Made by a program: the position numbers and the translations under genes
In this document: one piece after another, positions 33,042 to 64,000 of the stretch
Layout of the letters: every line of letters starts with the position of its first letter
How positions within the stretch are numbered: the first letter of the stretch is position 1
The notes under the pieces: model-generated
What the model was told of the DNA's origin: nothing
What the model saw: the letters and a program-made list of their open reading frames with translations, nothing else
Databases searched by the model: none
Assembly (NCBI RefSeq): GCF_964204645.1
Contig: NC_134035.1
Coordinates: forward strand, 6,014,001-6,078,000
Direction of reading: 5' to 3'
Source: Tubulanus polymorphus
Taxonomy: Eukaryota; Animalia; Nemertea
DNA: 64,000 nucleotides

Positions 33042-36000
33042 TTAATCAACTACATCATCGAAATTCAAACTAGCATACTGTGTTTCTAAATCAGAATTCT
33101 GCATTTCTTCGGCCTGAGCGAACAGTTTATCGATAATATCCACCGGCAGTTCACCGGTCATCGGAAACAAATATGGCCGCTTACGAATTAAACGCTTGTT
33201 GAATAAGCATTGTTTCAAGTGTTCCCCAATCGGTTGATAGTCAGTGAACTTCCATTCGTCAACAGGAGTGAAAACCGTACTGAAAAACCACCTCTGAAAA
33301 TATAAAACATAGGCTACAGTTCAATCTATCTCTTTACCGAGATAAAACAAGATCATTTAACCCTTAAGTAACTGTTATACCCTTTCAGTGCATCTGCACT
33401 GTAGTGCAGTGTATAAATTGGTGATGGACTTAAGCTAGTATGCCGCATCGCAGTGTATAGATGTTATCAGTAGTTAGTTTTTAGCCCACTTGGGACTTAA
33501 GTCCCAGCGGCCTATTGCGCTCACCTGTCGTCCGTCGTCCATCTGTGCGTAGGCAGAATCCAGTTATTTTGGGAAGTTTTGAAGACGCTTCAATGAATCG
33601 TCTTTATATTTGGTTTGTACATGTTTCTACCCTAGATACACCTTCTGCCCGAAAACTGGCCCAGTCAGAATCAAGATGGCCCCCTGGCAGCCATTGTTGT
33701 TCGCCAAAACGAGCACTTTTTACATATTTGTTAAGTTTTCAAAGTAAATTTTGAAAACCCTTTGATCAACATCTTGATCTTCACATAAGTTTGTATCCTT
33801 CCATGGTGCATCAGCATGAGATAAATTGGGCCTGGCGTCCCTGGATCCCTAGCTATCTCGATTGAAAGATGGCAGCACCTGTCAGTGAGATATTAGCAAC
33901 TAACGATACAGCGGCGTAGCAGTATGCCTGTGTTATTCAACACACTGGGGTGGATATATTTTTTAAATTTTCTCCTGCACTTTCGGGTATTAATTAGTCA
34001 GCACTGAAAGGGTTTTAATCTATTCGCGAATCTATTCATCACCTTAAATGCAATTTTCCATACGATTTTATCATTAGGCGCTTGCTCTCTCTCCCAGTGC
34101 GGGATCACAATTCCTCGGTCTTCCAGAACTGAACAACAAACGTCTCGTAGTAAATGATTCGTCATCGCGAGATTATTCAGACTAAAACCGTCTAAATACC
34201 TGTCAGGAAATAAGAGTAAAATATGGTCATATATGAAAAATACCGATGAATGAAAAATAGAAATGCTTCCCTGAGCGAGTGGTTTGTTCAATGTTTCAAG
34301 GATGTAGGACTTAAATATTAGCTGAAGGAAACATGAAACTAAAAGTCTGGGTCCAGTAGCACAAGTCATGACTTCAATAACAGTCAGTCTTAAATTTTAA
34401 GACTTTCTTCCAAGATCTAGGGATCATTCATATATTGCGTACACATAAAATTTGAATTTTTCAACCCCCCATGCACACACAATCGGCCATTTTTTCATAA
34501 ACATTAAGCATTACAGTATGCAATTGCACTTACCCCTCCTCCCATTGCGTACGTACCAATGAATGACCCCCTACTTAAAGCCTTGACTTTGCAACTGATC
34601 AATTTTTTTCCACAATAAGAACCCACGATAATATATTCAGATGAAAGGCAGAACTTTATTTTGTAAGGAGCCGACATCGATTCTCCAGTGAAACTCGTAC
34701 CTGGTTAAGTATCTGAGCACCTCGAATGGAAGAGTCGTTAAGGTCGAGTCTCTGCCCGAAGTTTTAACAGGCGATTTACTGGGGCGATGTAAGTGTACGT
34801 TAGACGCGAAGTTATACGAAGTATAGATTTCCGGAGTCGACTCCTTTGAACGCGAAGGACTCCGCGATCGACTCCTCGACGGTCCGCGGGTCGATTTATA
34901 ATCGTCGCAGTAACCGTTACTTCGACCGCCGCCAGACGGCGCCGGCAGCGATTCAATCGAATCATCCGCGACGACCGAGGTTTTAATTCCGAAACTTTCC
35001 AACGTCTGGCTATAAACGACCGTCGAATCGTTGGGCGCGGGTTGAAACCGACGGAACGAATACGTACAGCCGTACTGAGCGAGGGGACATCTCTGTTCCA
35101 TCCAGCCGTTTATACCCGAGTGAACGTCGCAGTGAACGTTCTTAAAATGCCAGGCGTATTCGTCGCGTCTGAACTGTTGAGCGCACAGAAACGTATACAT
35201 CGAACACGGCTTCGCTTGATATCTCGTTATAGATTCGATATACAAATCTAAACCTAGTAACTCGTTCAGAATCATCTCCATATTAGGAGGAGGTTTCGGC
35301 ACCTCAACTTCGGACAGAGTTTCCTCAGTATTCGTATCCACAGCCGTCAGATCCCTAACATCATTTTTAAGATCCGGCGATAAATCGAATCTTCGATCGG
35401 TTTTTATTGTATCATCAGCACAAACAGCACCATTTTGAATTTCACAATTACGATTGTCTTTTATCATACCAGGCAAAGCAAGCTCGGTATCTCCGGGATC
35501 GGCATCTGCAGAACATTCTCCGGGACTCTCCGGCCCATCGTGGGAAGGATCTCCCAGACTCACCGGCCCACCATGGGAACATTCTCCAGGACACACCGGC
35601 CCGCCGTGGGAAGGTTCTCCCAGACTCACCGGCCCGCCGTGGGTAGGTTCTCCCGGACTCACTGGCTCCTCGTTCCCAGTCTGTTCATCATTCAAATTAT
35701 CACAGAAACTATAATCATTTAAACTTCCCGAGTTGCTATGTGCACTAGTCGCCTCATTCTCCGGTATATCCTCTAAAGCGGTATCGGGACTGGTCAAGGT
35801 CGCGTGGATCGCAGTATTGATGGCGACCGTCAAACTCTCCGTGGTCTGCATCGTCGCGCGGTATAATTTACTACAGATACTACGCTGTAACCCGGGCGGC
35901 ATTTTAGCGCGTTCCCACGGCGAGTCGCTCTCGTCCTCCGACACCGTACGCGACGTATCGTTCGACGCCGGGTCGGTGTCGCCCCCTAGCGAATCGTCTC

Positions 36001-36499
36001 GACTATACGACAAGTGTAGCGGAACGGCCGGGTATTTCCGAGTCAGCGTATTCTGCAAAACCCGTCGCGTTTTTCGCGGAGCTTTCATCGATTCGTTCAA
36101 CATGCGTTGATCTCTCATCGCCAAGGCGACGTCCATTTGTCCGAATCGAGCGTGTACGTTGTTCTGCGAGAATGGCACGCGTATCTGCCTCTCTTTCGAA
36201 TACAGCGGCCATCGATTCCATTCCATCGTACAATAAACGACGCTCGCCGGACAGCGTTCTAAATGAACGCCGAGTTCGCGACGTACGATCGCGACCGGAC
36301 ATCCGTTCTCGTGGTTGATGCAGCGCACTTTCTCGTTCGCGCAGAGTAAAGCGTGTTCGGTTTGTTTACACTCGTGAAATCGAGCTCCGCATTTACACAA
36401 ACAGTTGATAATCCGACAGCTCGCGTTCGACGCCGGTTTCTTACAGTTCAGATTAAAACATACGCGACAATGATCGTGTTTACACATATCCGATTCCAT
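33042..36499 (-). CDS. FBXO30: F-box only protein 30/40 (TRAF-type Zn finger + C-terminal F-box), 735 aa
   Basis: Exons 36499-34701, 34199-34043, 33293-33042, in frame. Motifs: CGARFHECKQTEH, CPASVVYCTMEWNRWP, YTFLCAQQFRRDEYAWHFKNVHCDVHSGINGWMEQRCPLAQYGC, F-box LTTLPFEVLRYLTRYLDGFSL and WFFSTVFTPVDEWKF. Likely single orthologue of vertebrate FBXO30/FBXO40. Confidence 0.92.
33380..34012. mobile_element. piggyBac-like MITE (second, inverted copy at ~32763-33030)
   Basis: Terminal inverted repeat CCCTTTCAGTGC/GCACTGAAAGGG with degenerate TTAA-like flanks. Internal sequence matches 32763-33030 in reverse. Confidence 0.5.
33478..33853 (+). mobile_element. Non-autonomous Helentron/DINE-like element nested in a MITE
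   Basis: TTTTTAGCCCAC start, GGGACTTAAGTCCC hairpin, GTCGTCCGTCGTCC tract. Its end GTCCCTGGATCCCTAG resembles 163-180. Confidence 0.5.
34420..34570. mobile_element. Harbinger-like MITE with 3-bp target duplication (copy at 61053-61190)
   Basis: CTA|GGGATCATTCAT...ATGAATGACCCC|CTA. The second copy is flanked by ATA/ATA. Confidence 0.6.
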
Positions 36500-37759
36500 T
36501 GTGATCGATGATGGTGACCGGCCGGCACGGCGACCCGCACGGCGTTAAAATAATTCACTGATTACTTCACCCATCGTCTCTTCTGAAATCGGAAATAAAG
36601 ATCAGTTTTATCAGGGGATCTTCAGTTATACTTCCATTTAGATTTCGATTTAGGCCTACGCCTAGAAGGGACAGCTGGATGGTTGTCCGAGTCGCCAGAA
36701 CCTGCCAACGTGACACAACACAAGGTAATAGGGCCTAACTTTTGTATGAAATGTAGTTAAGATCATCATCTTTCCAGTGGCTCTTTAGTGTTATTAAGGA
36801 TTAAGTAAGGATTATGCTTAGGTTCATCACAAGTCAGCAAGTTGTTGAGGGGCTCCCCTCCACCTCCCTCCCCTTCTCCCGAGTCCCAATCCTCTCCCTC
36901 CCACCACCACACGGGCTCATATTTGAAGTTTGGGGGTGAACTGTAGCTTAGATCATGCATCCAGTATCCCAGGTACTAGGCCTATATATATAAAAGAATT
37001 TATTTTTTTTTAATTTCAAGATTTCTTTTAACATATATATTACCAGAGGGATACTGGATGATCTAAGCTACACTAACAGTTCACCCCCGGCCCCAACAAA
37101 CTTCAAATACGAGCCCCTGTCTGTCTGTGGATTTGATATGAAAATGATCCACCACTCCTGGAATAGTAGACGTAGTGAGATCAATCCACTCACAATAGTG
37201 GCCAGCGATCAGTCAGTGATCGCGGATCCACTCGATCGCTGGACTAGGCGTACGAGAAGTCAAGTTCGCTCTCGAACCTTATATCGCAGTTCGTCAGTTT
37301 TCGACGTCCATTCTCTCAATTGATAGTTCATATGCTTATTGATAGATGGCGGTAGAGTCGCATATAACTATTGAATAGGAAAATGCGGACCTTGGATTTA
37401 CAGATGGATGACACGTGCATTTTTGCTATCAATCACTTGTTATTGGCGAAATAATAAACAAATGAATAACCTAATTTCTACTACACTTGAAAATACCAAC
37501 TATCATTATTACAGATATTGCCTTCTGTTGCTGTATGATAAAAAGGTCACAATAGGACGTGCACACACGTGGCCCGACTGATCCAGGTCATGTGCTGCGG
37601 GGATTTGAAACAATTTAGAATCATTACACTGAGCAACAAAAATTCGTTCGTTAGAATTTAAGAAGCCCGGATTTTAGTCAGATCTATAGAGCACCATCTG
37701 GATGATTGAACTACGACCATCGTAAGACGAGAAGATACACAATATACGTCATGATGATA

Positions 37760-58019: not shown

Positions 58020-58437
58020 CAGGGTTTCCAGCGGTCCTTTCAAGTCCTTCTTTGTCCTTCTTTTGGAAAAAGTTTGGACAAACATCATCTTTGTCCTTCT
58101 TTTTGACACTTAAGTCCTTCCAATTTTGATTTTGATGTATTTTTCGTGCGCAATTTAGTTGCGAATTCGACTATTGAAGTAGGCCTGTTGATTCAATTTG
58201 TCAGTAAGATTGAATATACAGGAAAATGTTATGGAATTACCCTGGAATATATGACTGGTCAATATGGTTAGTATCCCGGTGAAGGCATTGCGAAAATGCT
58301 TCCTTATGGGTCCATGATCATATTGCTGGAAAGTACTTCTTTCTAAGTCAAAATATCCTTCCTTTTGGGTCTAAAATTGCCGGAAAAGTCCTTCTCAGTA
58401 CTTCTTTTTACCTGGCCTTACCACTGTGGAAACGCTG
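58020..58437. mobile_element. hAT-like MITE with 5-bp target duplication
   Basis: AAAGA|CAGGGTTTCCA...TGGAAACGCTG|AAAGA. Confidence 0.55.
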
Positions 58438-58741
58438 AAAGAGAACATGGCGATCAAAAAATTGTTTTGAAATTAGAACTTTGTATCATGCGTCCCTTTT
58501 GAAGACGCGTCTATTAATCATAACAACCTGAAATTGGCTTCACTCCATATCACAGTAAATATCACAGCACATTATTGCACGTTAGACAGGCAAACTGTAT
58601 CTTACGATTCGAGGTAAAGTGAACGATCGACTTATCATACGACACATGGTCGGTAAACCACGCGATAAGCTAATGCCAAGTTTTAAAAGCTTTTTCGCCG
58701 ATCACCTTATGCGACCTGACACGATCGCGAGTTGTAATCGC

Positions 58742-58748
58742 TATAAAA
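58742..58748 (+). promoter_or_regulatory. TATA box of the precursor gene
   Basis: TATAAAA about 140 bp upstream of ATG 58885, with an Inr-like TCAATT at 58781. Confidence 0.45.
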
Positions 58749-58884
58749 CCAGGAACGGTTTCGATCTAAAGTTTATTAGATCAATTTCATCGAGAGAGAG
58801 TCTCTAGCGAACTATCGAGAGAGCGAGCACGAATGAATAGAAACGAGAATATAGCAGTCATAACACGCCCAGTAGGAAATCAAG

Positions 58885-59791
58885 ATGTTACGACTCAGCT
58901 GGAGTATGTTATTGGTTTGTTTGATAGTAGCGGCGATTTCAGCCGCACCACTTCATCAAGATGAACATTCAGATCGTGATTTAAGTGGTAAGTAGGCAGC
59001 TCCTGGTCCTATAGAGGACACTTTGCTAAAATAGAATGATGCATGGCACGCCTAACCATATCTAGACTGGTCCACAGGGACCTGACGCAAATTAAGGATT
59101 TGCGAACCTGCATTGGACAGGTCCAATAACGGGCGGTCCTGATTTCTATATGGTTGTATGCGGTATATCGGAATAATGAAAAAGTCGTTAACTCTGCGTC
59201 CCGAACGTATGAAAGAATTTTCTGTTTTTAATTTGCTTGTGATGTGATGCATTCATGTGCCCAAGTTCAAATTTCATCACCAATATTCTCCTTAATATCT
59301 GGATTATTTCCTCCACCTTTCAAAATATATTACTCCATTTCTTTCTCTTTCTAATAGGGAAAAAGTCTCGCCGCAGCGAACATGGTGACAAACTACTCTT
59401 TAAAAAAAGAAATAAAGTATTGGTTGATATGATCAAAAAATGGGAACAACGGCACCCAACCGGTACTGGTTTTATTCGGACAGTTGACGGGGGCAGTTCG
59501 GGTATTTCTACTGACGAGGATAACAGTTTTAAACCCGTAAACAATCGTCATAAACTCTTGAATCCCGATGCCCTGATTCGAGGGGCACTGATTGGCGAAT
59601 CGGGGATCCGCAGAAATAGGCGTTCAACAGTTGCTGATCTAGATAAGTTAACCGCACATGAAATGAAAGACTTACTGAAGAAACTCGTCGATAAAGAGTC
59701 GTTAATGAGAAACAACTGGCTCGTCGAGCATAACGGCAAAATATACGATTTGAGCAAAATATCGTCCGTTTGTTGTGACCTTGGGAAATAA
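58885..59791 (+). CDS. Uncharacterised secreted prohormone/neuropeptide-like precursor, 178 aa
   Basis: Exon 1 58885-58987 (MLRLSWSMLLVCLIVAAISAAPLHQDEHSDRDLS, G|GTAAGT) and exon 2 59358-59791 (after a long pyrimidine tract + TAG) join in phase 1. Hydrophobic signal peptide; GKK, RR, KKR and RRNRR sites; C-terminal GK*. Confidence 0.75.
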
Positions 59792-61359
59792 CAAATCATC
59801 GTGCGTCAAGTGTTTATATACGATTAGTACTGTTGCTATCTTATCATGTGTGATATGCTATGTGTTAACCGTAAAATCATATGATCCGTTTATCAGACGA
59901 TCCACATTGGCAAGTTGTAAATATTCTGTACACTTTTGTTCATTTTTCTATTGTGTAAAATATATTCATCTTCTTATTTTTAGATTACTTTGTTAGTTTA
60001 TAGATCTTCTTTTGTACTGTGGGGTGTCGTTTCAAATTTTCTGGTAGCACAAGTGTCAAAGCGGGAGGTTCACTGCTTGCAAGAATTCGATTGAAGGGCA
60101 GTTCTTTCTCTGTAGCACTTTCTTGTGCCGAAAAAGTGGCGCTACTTTTTCCAGTATTCATATGGGGCACGAGATTTACTTTTTAAAGTCAAATTTCATT
60201 CATCGCTTAACACCAGTTCCTTTTAAATTCAAATGATTGAATCCATGCAAAACTTTTTAAAGGGAATTCGTTTTTGAAAACTTTTTTCAAGCTGCTTTTC
60301 ATAGAACTCTGCTCAGCGAATGTAGGCATACGATGAACCACAGGAATAATTTTCAAGTCAACAAGTAGCCTTTTTCATGAAAAGTAAGCACTTCTGGGCC
60401 TTGACAGATTTTGAGTAGCATTTAACCTTAGGAAACTTGCTTCAAACTAACTATATCTTTACAAAAAAGACAAAATATTTCTACCCAAAAACACGAATTA
60501 GGACACCTACATCAGCATCGTTGAAACATTTCACGGTCCTTAGATTTAGTACCAGTCTGAATTACAAGACGATGAAGCCTTCGGGTTACCCTACTTAGTC
60601 TTTTACCTAGCAATTGTTTCCTAAGTCTTAAGACTATCTTGCTTGATCGTGTAGGCCAAGCAATGCCCAAAAGCTGCAGGACAGAATCAAAGAAAAATAA
60701 AGAAAACAAAAACTGCTGTTTAAAGGCCTTATGCTTCAATCTATGTATAGACTGTTTTTAATAGAAGGTTGTTAAGGGGCACAATTGGTCTGCTGGTCCA
60801 AGCTGAACGACATCCATACTAGAAAATCAAAAGCAATTCTTCGAAATTCTAAAGACAACTTTATTAGATGATCATGTATCTAGTTAATTAATATATTAAA
60901 TTTCAACACAATTTCTCGTATATGATGAAGGTATGTTACAAATGATTCATAATCTGAACTCCGGATCATGATAAACTCATACTCCAAACAGCACATACAC
61001 AGTATTTACACAACAAAACTATTAAAAACATTATATACATGTACTGTACATAGGGATCATAAAATTTGAATTTTTCAACCCTCTTCCTCATGTCCGCACA
61101 ATCGGCCATTTTTTCATATACATTAAGCATTACAGTTAGCAATTGCACTGACCCCTCCCCGATTGCATATGTAATTAAATGAATGACCCCATAGCTAGTT
61201 TAATATTAGATGTTGTAATCTGATGTGATTTATCAGATTTTGTAAGGTTACGCGTCTAGTTTGGACAGGAATATTCTATTTTAATACTTATTACATTTGC
61301 GCAGAAATCTTTTTCGCGCGAATTTCATCTCATCATCACTTCCAAATTGGATCACTGAA

Positions 61360-64000
61360 TCACAACATATCGAACGCCGACATTTTCAGATCCTGTAAAT
61401 TGTTACGAGCTGAAAAGCAAAAGAAAAATAGGTAAAAACAGACAGTACAGGTTTTAAGGATGATTATCATCAGGATATGAACAATTTCTGCGACGAAGTT
61501 CAAAATCTCGAACTGACCCTCGAAATATGTTGTATCCGTGTCGTCATCGGGGACGGGGATAAACGGAGCATCCGATTCACACAGCATGTCCCAATTAATA
61601 CTCTCAAAAAATCTATAGTTCATCAGACCTGTAATAAGACGATAATAAATGGGTTTAATTCAACTGAAAAGGAAGATTTAGGTTTCAAGGAGATAGAGAT
61701 TACAAGTTGACTTGAACTTTGGAAAACTGTACTCTTTGAATTTACATACCACATTCAATAGGCCTACTAGTTACGTCAAAGAGCCAGAAAAAATTGACCT
61801 TAGTGAACTTACTGGATGCGTCTGGTCGTGAATTCGGTTCAATTTCCAGTAGATCATTGATCACAGAACACGCGCTATCGGACAGAGCTTCCTCCTCATC
61901 TTCGGGCCACGGAATATCTGAAAATGTTCATTCAAATTCAATAAGGTACAGTCCTTTGAATCCTCAGACTCGGTCTCGGTTGATCTGGAGTCAGGTTTTT
62001 ACCCTGCCGCACACGGCACAGAAAACACGTTTTTCCTCGTGAAAAACGTTTCCGATTGTTTTGTTATGCCGTGTGGAGGAGTCAAAACACAAAATGTCGG
62101 ACAAAAAACCTTTTTCACGAAACTGCTTGATTTGCGAAAAACGTTTTGTGTAGTCGAAAACGTTTTTTTGTCCCGTGTGCGGAGGATGTTTTGTGTTTTG
62201 CAAAACATCCATAGCTGAATAACCAATCAACGAGCAACAATACATCAGGTGGCATCGCAAAAATTGATGTGAATAACTGAGTTTACTGTCGTCTCCATGG
62301 ATTCTATGGTGCAAAAAATGTTTTCTGCACATTTTCGTTATGCAGTGTGCGTTGAACGTTTTTTCAAAACATTCACTCAAAATGTTTTGTGAAAAATTTT
62401 TGTTTTAGTAGAACAAATGTTATGCCGTGTGCGGTGGGCTTTATTGGTGAATCAGTCTTACCTCGGTTGAGAATATTCTGGAAGACGAGATTGGCTGTTT
62501 GATCGTTGAAAGGAGGGACGCCGGTGAGAAATTCAAACACGCAAACTCCCAGAGCCCACCAGTCAACTTCCGGTCCTACATATAGAAAAATATAGTTTAA
62601 GATATTGGAACGTCTGTGATCTCATCCACTTCAATTTTCTATAAACGACAGGGTTGATAATTTACCGTGTTTTTGTTGACGTAGTAGTTCCGGCGCTAGG
62701 TAATCCGGCGTACCCAGTATTCTATCCTCTTCCGTTTCTTCTCTCATCCCACGCCGGACGCTCTTCGGCGTTTTATACGGCGTCCGGATGCCCAGTTTTG
62801 GTCCCGGTGTTTTACTCACGATGATTTGATTATTCTGTATTCGGAATAGATAAAACGTCAAAACATCTTTTAAAATAATATTCGAAAGTGAAGTGAGAAG
62901 AAATCTGTATTTTTCAATAGTCAAAGTCAAATAAATCAAAATGATACATTGTTTCTCTGCAGCGGCCGGGTCATTTTAGTTAAATATAATAAAATTTTTT
63001 ATCAGTTCATTTCTCGAGCTGCTGGGTGTGTTAATGTAGGGGGTGGATAGGCGGCCAGCCGGGTCTAGTATTGAGTTCAGCAGAGCGGAGAAACAAGGTA
63101 TACATTTTTTTAATAGCCTTACAATCTATTTGAATTGATGGGAGGGTAAGAATAAACTTTGAACTGACCGCTTTAGACGCCGTGTTGTCTAGATAAACAG
63201 AACCGAATTGATATCGACCTCTACTGCCGAAACTACGTTCCGTAGCGATCAACGAATCGCGAAATTTCAGCAGTTTCGTTTTAGCGAGGTGCGTCTGTGG
63301 TTGTTGTTTACAATCAGGTGCTGGCGGCGTCGCAACCGAGGGCGACATACGACTTGAATCATCGTTTATACGTTTCCCATCACTGTCGTCTATAATCTGA
63401 CTGACCGGCGACAACTGATCGCTGCTGAAATGTAAAGAATCGATCGATTCCTCCGCCGCCGCCGAGTTTCCCGTTAAACTCGGTATTATCTGATTCTCCG
63501 GCGTGTGAAAATTCAAACTGTCTTCGTTACGAGACTGAAGCACGTGCAGACGCGATCGACTGGAGTCATCGAGGTGACTGAACGAACGCGCGTAACTCAT
63601 CTGCAGACTGTCGCGCGTGTTCCCCGAACGCATCAGTTCGAGGTCGTCGCTCGAACGGTCGCTGCCGTCGAAACTGAATTTGCGCCGTTCGATCGACGAC
63701 GCCGAATGACAGCGTTTAACGCGATGCTCGTCGCCGATTCGAAGAGCTCGGATCTCGGCCGTCATTCCGGTGTTCGCATTCACCGCGACGATCGATGATT
63801 TTCCCAACGGACTTTTCTCGACGAAATCGAAGCTGCGTTTTTGCCGACACGCAACGGCCCCGGCGCTACCGAACGACGGGTCGATGTTTTCGTCGATCGT
63901 AAAATCAGCGACGCTACTCGTGACGGCTCGCGTGAAATCGCGTTTAAAACTGTTAGTATTCGCCGGTTTCGCGAGTAACCGTTTGAAACTGGGCCTCGCG
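61360..64000 (-). CDS. MASTL: Serine/threonine kinase Greatwall (3' part; continues past window end)
   Basis: Exons >64000-63169, 62834-62666, 62575-62462, 61917-61813, 61628-61518, 61409-61360, in frame. Long low-complexity insert before [13 protein letters not shown]...[11 protein letters not shown], then [24 protein letters not shown], the AGC tail [19 protein letters not shown] and stop. Confidence 0.93.
61999..62441. mobile_element. MITE in a MASTL intron
   Basis: Inverted repeat CCGCACACGGCA/TGCCGTGTGCGG, with internal CCGTGTG.GG.G sub-repeats. Confidence 0.55.

What the first reader, a model, noticed from the sequence alone, without database searches (positions are those of the whole stretch)
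58885..59791. Orphan two-exon prohormone-like gene between Ras and Greatwall
Seen: a 103-nt exon absent from the ORF track encodes a clean signal peptide (MLRLSWSMLLVCLIVAAISA|AP) and splices in phase to the 59358 exon. A TATA box lies upstream. Established processing rules (convertase cleavage at basic pairs, PAM amidation at Gly-Lys) predict APLHQDEHSDRDLS-amide and a 53-aa C-terminal peptide after furin-type RNRR: STVADLDKLTAHEMKDLLKKLVDKESLMRNNWLVEHNGKIYDLSKISSVCCDL-amide. Inference, by eye only: LTAHEMKDLL...ESL...NGKIYDL echoes CRF (LTFHLLREVL...EQL...NRKLMEI), hinting at the CRF/DH44/egg-laying-hormone family. The added tail with vicinal Cys-Cys is not something I know from that family. 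It could be an undescribed hormone or secreted toxin.
Basis: partly seen in the sequence, partly recalled or inferred. Interest (0 to 1): 0.8.

Follow-up and report, generated by a model that had tools for sequence, protein, structure and literature searches.

The report
Ribbon-worm orphan amidated peptide precursor
A ribbon worm has a spliced two-exon gene for a protein with no relative found in large databases, predicted to be secreted and cut into a 53-residue amidated peptide that is likely a signalling molecule; its first ten residues resemble the worm's known DH44 (CRF-type) hormone, the rest does not.

Summary
The gene is real and exactly as described: exons 58885-58987 and 59358-59791 join across a 370-nt GT..AG intron, seen spliced in contigs of two studies. 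The 178-aa product is RefSeq XP_074660888.1, 'uncharacterized', of the ribbon worm Tubulanus polymorphus. Signal peptide, RNRR site and terminal Gly-Lys are present; the three processing marks co-occur in 0.09% of shuffles. No homologue, family or fold was found. It is not the DH44/ELH orthologue: the species already has one, and this peptide lacks the family's C-terminal motif, is longer and carries two cysteines. Best reading: orphan preprohormone-type precursor releasing an amidated signal peptide (0.40); rivals: gland or defence peptide (0.25), divergent DH44 paralogue (0.18). Processing, tissue, conservation and receptor are untested. The short N-terminal amide is doubtful.

The parts
58742..58747 (+). 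TATAAA, candidate TATA box (function untested)
   Evidence: transcription start not mapped; X5 contig begins at 58866
58833..58964 (+). Out-of-frame upstream ATG and 43-codon ORF overlapping the main start; weaker context than the main ATG
58885..58987 (+). Coding exon 1 (103 nt): predicted signal peptide, residues 1-20 (58885-58944), and N-terminal peptide, residues 21-34
   Evidence: covered by X4 and X5 contigs
58988..59357 (+). 370-nt phase-1 GT..AG intron splitting the Gly35 codon
   Evidence: joint in X4 and X5
59358..59791 (+). Coding exon 2 (434 nt with stop): pro-region with basic clusters KKSRR, KKR, KK, then RRNRR and the C-terminal peptide
59612..59623 (+). RNRR, residues 120-123, furin/convertase consensus R-x-[KR]-R
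   Evidence: cleavage predicted, not shown
59624..59782 (+). Predicted mature 53-aa peptide, residues 124-176 (net charge -1, about 6.06 kDa): DH44-like first ten residues, amphipathic helix, predicted beta-hairpin, vicinal Cys173-Cys174 (59771-59776)
59783..59791 (+). Gly-Lys-stop, amidation signal
   Evidence: 1.75% of shuffles end this way
59792..59894 (+). 3' untranslated region, at least this far; no AATAAA found to 60500
   Evidence: X5 contig 59455-59894

Best explanation
A spliced, single-copy gene of the ribbon worm Tubulanus polymorphus encodes a 178-residue protein that is predicted to enter the secretory pathway and be cut at RNRR and trimmed at its Gly-Lys end, which would release a 53-residue amidated peptide that likely acts as a cell-to-cell signal. 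Shown: gene structure, splicing, sequence marks, lack of detectable homologues. Inferred from established prohormone biochemistry (signal peptidase, furin or PC1/3-PC2, carboxypeptidase E, PAM; own knowledge): removal of residues 1-20, cleavage after Arg123, loss of Lys178, amidation of Leu176. Inferred with less support: the amphipathic helix (residues 134-145) and N-terminal decamer engage a receptor, most plausibly a secretin-type GPCR; the adjacent cysteines form a vicinal or inter-chain disulfide; a further single-Arg cut at Arg152 (Lys six residues upstream) could split the product into a 28-aa helical and a 24-aa amidated piece.
For: Splice joint in two studies; RefSeq model identical. 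Hydrophobic leader and no membrane anchor. C-terminal G[KR], furin site and internal G-basic-basic together in 0.09% of 100,000 shuffles, the terminal mark alone 1.75% (features chosen after seeing the sequence). Precursor predicted mostly disordered outside a few helices (pLDDT 42.7), while the mature piece alone gives a moderately confident compact model (pLDDT 72.4, pTM 0.51). Atlas feature neighbours are small secreted peptides and neuropeptide precursors, 7 of 10 rows shown named as peptide hormones or neuropeptides, all under the 0.9 bar, so a lead only. Neutral charge and one cysteine pair differ from described nemertean peptide toxins. No second copy in the window. First ten mature residues match the DH44 core.
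Against: No homologue at all, whereas the new nemertean neuropeptide groups I read (WWS, GxGH) have T. polymorphus members that are recognisably conserved across the phylum; fast-evolving orphans are more typical of gland, defence and reproductive secretions (own knowledge). Seven runs of two or more basic residues are not unusual for this composition (12.6% of shuffles), nor is the furin motif alone (16.8%). A helix-hairpin-helix mini-domain is not the usual shape of a class B GPCR ligand (own knowledge). The only coding allele seen, Ile169Met, lies in the mature peptide. No peptide, tissue or receptor data.
Confidence: 0.4

Rival explanations
1. Exocrine gland product: the same processing yields a skin, mucus, tube or proboscis peptide with a defensive, antimicrobial, toxic or cross-linking role, the cysteine pair serving for covalent dimers or networks.
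For: Orphan status; nemerteans secrete peptide toxins from skin and proboscis (passages); propeptide-furin site-mature peptide-Gly-Lys is also common in venom and antimicrobial precursors (own knowledge); compact predicted mini-domain.
Against: One cysteine pair against 3-4 disulfides in nemertide alpha, B-toxins, A-toxins and parborlysins, and net charge -1 against pI 10-10.4 for parborlysins; no tandem paralogue; not among the putative toxin sequences of Vlasenko 2022 as far as held (file cut when stored).
Confidence: 0.25
2. A divergent second member of the CRF/DH44/ELH family that kept the N-terminal core, lost the family's C-terminal motif and gained a hairpin and a cysteine-bearing tail; it would act on the worm's own or a prey's DH44-type receptor.
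For: Mature residues 1-10 match the T. polymorphus DH44 core at 6 of 10 positions, BLOSUM62 25; equal or better in 0.18% of 20,000 shuffles of the precursor body, 0.01% within the first six offsets of the shuffled mature peptide, and in 1 of 71,439 decamers of the window, itself. The match starts right behind the cleavage site. A single C-terminal peptide between RxRR and Gly-Lys-stop is the layout of vertebrate CRH precursors (recalled, no call).
Against: The decamer was picked by eye after seeing the match: times 31 possible windows gives about 0.05, before allowing for the about 70 families one could have compared. L-D-x-L-T is also part of a generic helix start (L7/L12 hits at E 0.2-1.1). 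The Leu-Ser-Ile start and the C-terminal RL-G[KR]R, present in 7 of 7 nemertean entries shown, are absent; 52 residues follow the motif Ser against 34 in DH44; hydrophobic register shifts after residue 10; species already has one DH44.
Confidence: 0.18
3. A reproductive or pheromone-like secreted protein, or a secreted protein that is not processed to an amide, whose basic clusters are incidental.
For: Orphan status; basic runs alone are not above chance; top Atlas row is the small secreted Frey family at 0.87, under the bar; contig depth differs greatly between X4 and X5, compatible with tissue- or stage-bound expression but not a measure of it.
Against: Joint occurrence of RNRR and terminal Gly-Lys around a self-contained foldable piece.
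Confidence: 0.12
4. Not a functional gene: a chance frame or annotation artefact.
For: No conservation evidence outside the species.
Against: Spliced in two studies, intact frame, length differences among alleles only in intron, upstream and 3' untranslated DNA (4 of 4 listed), coherent signal peptide plus processing marks.
Confidence: 0.02

Closest known systems
CRF / DH44 / egg-laying hormone family, in particular T. polymorphus DH44/ELH (Thiel et al. 2021, PMC8557429, supplement; De Oliveira et al. 2019, PMC6425005)
   Same: Signal peptide, long pro-region, one amidated peptide near the C-terminus; S-x-V-x-x-L-D-x-L-T at the start of the mature peptide (6 of 10 identical); helical tendency.
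   Different: No Leu-Ser-Ile start, no C-terminal RL-amide motif, 53 against 40 residues, predicted beta-hairpin, two adjacent cysteines, ends in Gly-Lys-stop rather than GKR plus tail; a different gene from the listed DH44.
Single-copy preprohormones in general, and lineage-restricted nemertean precursors (WWS, DMF, GxGH, AGEamide, ND, PSLamide; PMC8557429)
   Same: Secretory leader, basic cleavage clusters, amidation signal, no receptor known.
   Different: No sequence match to the groups read; no repeats; no mass-spectrometry support; no second species.
Nemertean peptide toxins: nemertide alpha, Cerebratulus B- and A-toxins, parborlysins (Goransson et al. 2019, PMC6410017)
   Same: Small secreted peptide of a ribbon worm, about 6 kDa like the 55-residue B-toxins, partly helical.
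   Different: One cysteine pair instead of 3-4 disulfides; neutral rather than strongly basic; no sequence or fold match.
Corazonin/GnRH/AKH-type precursors
   Same: Short peptide straight after the signal peptide followed by S-G-K-basic-S, and cysteines in a C-terminal piece (compare T. polymorphus corazonin).
   Different: No N-terminal Gln at the predicted cleavage, no Phe or Trp in the short peptide; the species has its own corazonin.

Membership tests
CRF/DH44/ELH | N-terminal core L-S-[IV]-x-x-S-L-D-A-L-[ST]-D (7 of 7 nemertean entries shown) | tested here: inconclusive
   Strict pattern absent, but 6 of 10 identities to the T. polymorphus core at the very start of the mature peptide; Thr replaces Ile, the leading Leu and trailing Asp are missing.
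CRF/DH44/ELH | C-terminal motif ending RL-amide before G[KR]R (7 of 7 nemertean entries shown), with Asn or equivalent eight residues from the end | tested here: not met
   peptide ends in ...VCCDL-G-K
CRF/DH44/ELH | About 40 residues, cysteine-free, 34 residues from motif Ser to the end in the species' DH44 | tested here: not met
   53 residues, 52 after the Ser, two Cys
CRF/DH44/ELH | Continuous helix | tested here: inconclusive
   Single-sequence model has helix 11-22, hairpin 33-42, helix 43-53; moderate confidence only
CRF/DH44/ELH | Match to Pfam CRF or ELH profiles or to solved CRF-family chains | tested here: inconclusive
   No such hit, but filters drop E above about 0.1 and the true nemertean DH44 was not run as a positive control
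CRF/DH44/ELH | Activates a CRF/DH44-type class B GPCR | not testable with these tools
   needs a receptor assay
Preprohormone-type precursor (general) | N-terminal signal peptide, no membrane anchor | tested here: met
   hydropathy, (not SignalP)
Preprohormone-type precursor (general) | Convertase site before and amidation signal after the peptide | tested here: met
   RNRR 120-123, Gly-Lys-stop; sequence marks only
Preprohormone-type precursor (general) | Conservation concentrated in the mature peptide among relatives | tested here: inconclusive
   no relative found to compare
Preprohormone-type precursor (general) | Mature peptide detected; neuronal or endocrine expression | not testable with these tools
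   no peptidomics or tissue data
Nemertean peptide toxins (nemertide alpha, B-toxin, A-toxin/parborlysin) | Three or four disulfides | tested here: not met
   two cysteines in the mature region
Nemertean cytolysins (A-toxin/parborlysin) | About 10 kDa, strongly basic | tested here: not met
   6.06 kDa, net charge -1
Insulin-like peptides | Six-cysteine pattern (two in the B chain, CC plus two in the A chain) | tested here: not met
   cysteines only at 12, 173, 174; pattern from own knowledge
Corazonin/GnRH/AKH | pGlu-initiated peptide with Phe/Tyr-Ser and Trp right after the signal peptide | tested here: not met
   residues 21-34 hold no aromatic Phe, Tyr or Trp against entries

The most novel reading that the evidence does not exclude
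A second, highly remodelled CRF/DH44-like peptide: the receptor-activating N-terminal core is kept, and the family's C-terminal helix is replaced by a hairpin and an amidated vicinal-cysteine tail, serving either as the ligand of an orphan secretin-type receptor in early-branching ribbon worms or as a hormone-mimicking secretion aimed at prey.
Probability: 0.18. Interest if true: 0.68.

Novelty: new member of a known kind. Interest (0 to 1): 0.36.

Why it matters
Palaeonemerteans are an early branch of a toxin-secreting phylum whose peptide complement was catalogued by homology and repeat searches, which miss single-copy orphans. This gene is a clean, spliced, synthesisable candidate (53 aa) missing from those catalogues. 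If it is a hormone it adds a lineage-restricted family; if it is a remodelled DH44 it would be an unusual architecture for an otherwise rigid 40-residue helical family and testable on known receptors; if it is a gland product it would be a new scaffold among ribbon-worm secretions. As it stands it is one of many orphan secreted proteins in an invertebrate genome, already modelled by RefSeq, with no conservation or function data.

Tried and rejected
Homologue searches: only itself among 30 candidates, 1 candidate, none among shorter proteins; exhaustive HMMER over 1.84 billion representatives gave 3 hits, itself and two repetitive proteins matching short stretches, judged chance; lengths over 312 aa were covered only. 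Metagenome scan: 2 loci of 108 pattern matches, 33% over residues 6-52; L001 is a shadow frame opposite a larger ORF, rejected; L002 has the same match coordinates and was not opened. Pfam: only DUF6967 and DUF1127 far under cut-off; PHROGs none; PDB sequences only E above 0.2. Fold: Foldseek best E 3.7, VIA best Z 3.6, Atlas TM under 0.5, winged-helix-like rows: no fold assigned, which does not show the fold is new. A cytochrome b5-like look of the WLVEHNGKIYDL stretch (recalled motif) found no support in these scans. Homodimer prediction: no answer, score 0.04 against mark 0.32. Sequencing runs: no RNA holder listed. No whole genome was held, so paralogues outside the window and synteny in other ribbon worms were not examined; expression relative to neighbouring genes was not measured. 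A full profile comparison with the nemertean DH44 set was not run. Literature: locus name in 0 papers; six exact motifs of the protein not found as this protein in the Thiel 2021 supplement or the held part of the Vlasenko 2022 supplement; the Cephalothrix proteome supplement (PMC12846013) could not be read and may bear on the toxin reading. Earlier scan notes: nothing near, by sequence, by words or in relatives; six unrelated notes in the genome.

Full report
Observation. An ATG at 58885 in a good context (A at -3) opens a 103-nt exon that ends at a G|GTAAGT donor; a 370-nt intron ends in a pyrimidine tract and AG at 59357; the second exon runs 434 nt to TAA at 59791; the joined frame is 178 codons. 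The search of 5.8 billion proteins returned this exact protein as RefSeq XP_074660888.1, 'uncharacterized protein LOC141913294' of Tubulanus polymorphus, a palaeonemertean ribbon worm, a cluster of one. Ras exons lie upstream and a Greatwall kinase lies on the minus strand downstream (best hit E 1e-16 to human Greatwall).

Transcription. Six runs were listed, none on record as RNA. Four were laid. X2 and X3 read through the intron. X4 and X5, from two studies, lack the intron and carry the exact 370-nt GT..AG joint; X5 has 121 and 33 letters on the two sides, X4 28 on the shorter side at depth 1243. X5 also runs through the stop codon to 59894. These are contigs, so strand, start and level are not shown. 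Among alleles, all 4 listed length differences fall in non-coding DNA; of 4 listed substitutions one is coding, Ile169Met. The numbers are too small to measure selection.

Anatomy. Residues 4-17 are a hydrophobic core (peak 3.35), followed by I-S-A|A-P; nothing else could span a membrane. Basic clusters lie at 36-40 (KKSRR), 50-52 (KKR), 61-62, 119-123 (RRNRR) and 142-143; the chain ends in Gly-Lys. In 100,000 shuffles of residues 21-178 a terminal G[KR] arose in 1.75%, a furin motif in 16.8%, an internal G-basic-basic in 37.5%, all three in 0.09%, and seven basic runs in 12.6%; the features were chosen after seeing the sequence. By established rules (own knowledge) the best-supported product is residues 124-176 as an amide: 53 aa, net charge -1, 6.06 kDa, with a strongly amphipathic helix at 134-146 and the only two mature cysteines side by side. 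The inner Lys-Lys before Leu is unlikely to be cut (Veenstra, PMC6585902, passages). Arg152 has a Lys six residues upstream, the kind of single-Arg site seen by mass spectrometry in Lineus (Thiel et al., PMC8557429, section 6), so a split product is possible. The short N-terminal amide is doubtful: it needs a Lys-Lys cut, and its Gly codon is made by the splice junction. AlphaFold2 without alignment gives the mature piece a helix-helix-hairpin-helix model (pLDDT 72.4, pTM 0.51) and the whole precursor a mostly disordered one with the same hairpin (pLDDT 42.7).

Relatives. None was found by word-indexed searches, by HMMER over 1.84 billion representatives (3 hits: itself and two repetitive proteins), in metagenome contigs, in the window, in Pfam, PHROGs or PDB sequences or by fold. 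These searches would miss a short peptide at about 35% identity, and how many nemertean proteomes they hold was not checked. Atlas feature neighbours are mostly neuropeptide precursors, all under the tool's bar.

The CRF/DH44 question. T. polymorphus already has one canonical DH44/ELH precursor (Thiel supplement parts 10 and 61; De Oliveira et al., PMC6425005, passages). All 7 nemertean entries shown share L-S-[IV]-x-x-S-L-D-A-L-[ST]-D and end in RL-G[KR]R; the T. polymorphus peptide is 40 residues without cysteine. The present peptide has neither strict motif, is 53 residues and has two cysteines, so it is not filed in the family. Against my own first reading, a different register does match: the first ten mature residues equal the T. 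polymorphus DH44 core at 6 of 10 positions. That score was reached in 0.18% of 20,000 shuffles of the precursor body, 0.01% near the start of the shuffled mature peptide, and by 1 of 71,439 stop-free decamers in the window, the peptide itself. I chose the decamer after seeing the match, so the corrected value is about 0.05 or weaker, and the likeness ends after residue 10. It is a lead, which I put at 0.18.

Toxin reading. Described nemertean peptide toxins have three or four disulfides, and parborlysins have pI 10-10.4 (Goransson et al., PMC6410017, passages). This peptide fits none. It is not in the held part of the Vlasenko 2022 toxin tables (PMC9415933, passages and supplement search). An undescribed gland peptide stays possible because orphan status suits it.

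Mechanism and verdict. Most likely a preprohormone-type precursor releasing an amidated 53-aa signal peptide (0.40), then exocrine or defence peptide (0.25), remodelled DH44 paralogue (0.18), reproductive or unprocessed secreted protein (0.12), artefact (0.02). Gene and splicing are shown; processing, site of expression and target are inferred. It is a new member of a known kind, not in print under its locus name (further searches), and not noted earlier by the scan. Papers seen: PMC8557429 (passages, sections 5 and 6, supplement searches and parts 10, 29, 61 of 387); PMC6425005, PMC6410017, PMC6585902, PMC9415933 (passages); PMC9070308 (abstract and outline, not relied on); PMC12846013 (listing only; supplement unreadable, may bear on the toxin reading). 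Interest 0.36.

Noticed in passing
window 58435-58527: An X4 contig (depth 282) running from exon 1 upstream skips 93 nt with CT..AC ends, i.e. GT..AG on the minus strand with a good acceptor (pyrimidine tract plus CAG) and a weak donor: a possible spliced divergent or antisense RNA from the same promoter region, or a deletion between two 6-nt direct repeats.
   Followed up: partly
window 59745-59751: Contigs of sample S2 (X2, X3, X4) all break here inside the coding exon, and one X2 contig goes on with 25 foreign letters not found in the window; X5 reads straight through. Could be an insertion allele, a chimeric join or a filter gap.
   Followed up: partly
window 59761: A>G allele in X2 and X5 changes Ile169 to Met in the predicted mature peptide.
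   Followed up: yes
window 58340-58430 and 60186-60218: Many contigs with loose ends pile up here: edges of dispersed repeats flanking the gene on both sides; short direct repeats at 58042-58408.
   Followed up: no
window 58833-58964: Out-of-frame upstream ATG gives a 43-codon ORF overlapping the main start; could damp translation if it lies in the mRNA.
   Followed up: no
window 34640-36544 (minus): 635-codon open exon with a TRAF-like zinc finger (PF15965), with a low-complexity 'GEPSHGGPV' repeat; probably an F-box protein 30/40-type gene (name recalled).
   Followed up: no
window 63034-63999 (minus): Long serine-rich open exon of Greatwall, the non-conserved insert within the kinase domain (assignment of the insert from own knowledge).
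   Followed up: no
L001 1689-2171 (minus): The metagenome hit lies opposite a 160-aa ORF that looks like a phage terminase small subunit (by eye, untested); the match to the query is a shadow frame.
   Followed up: no
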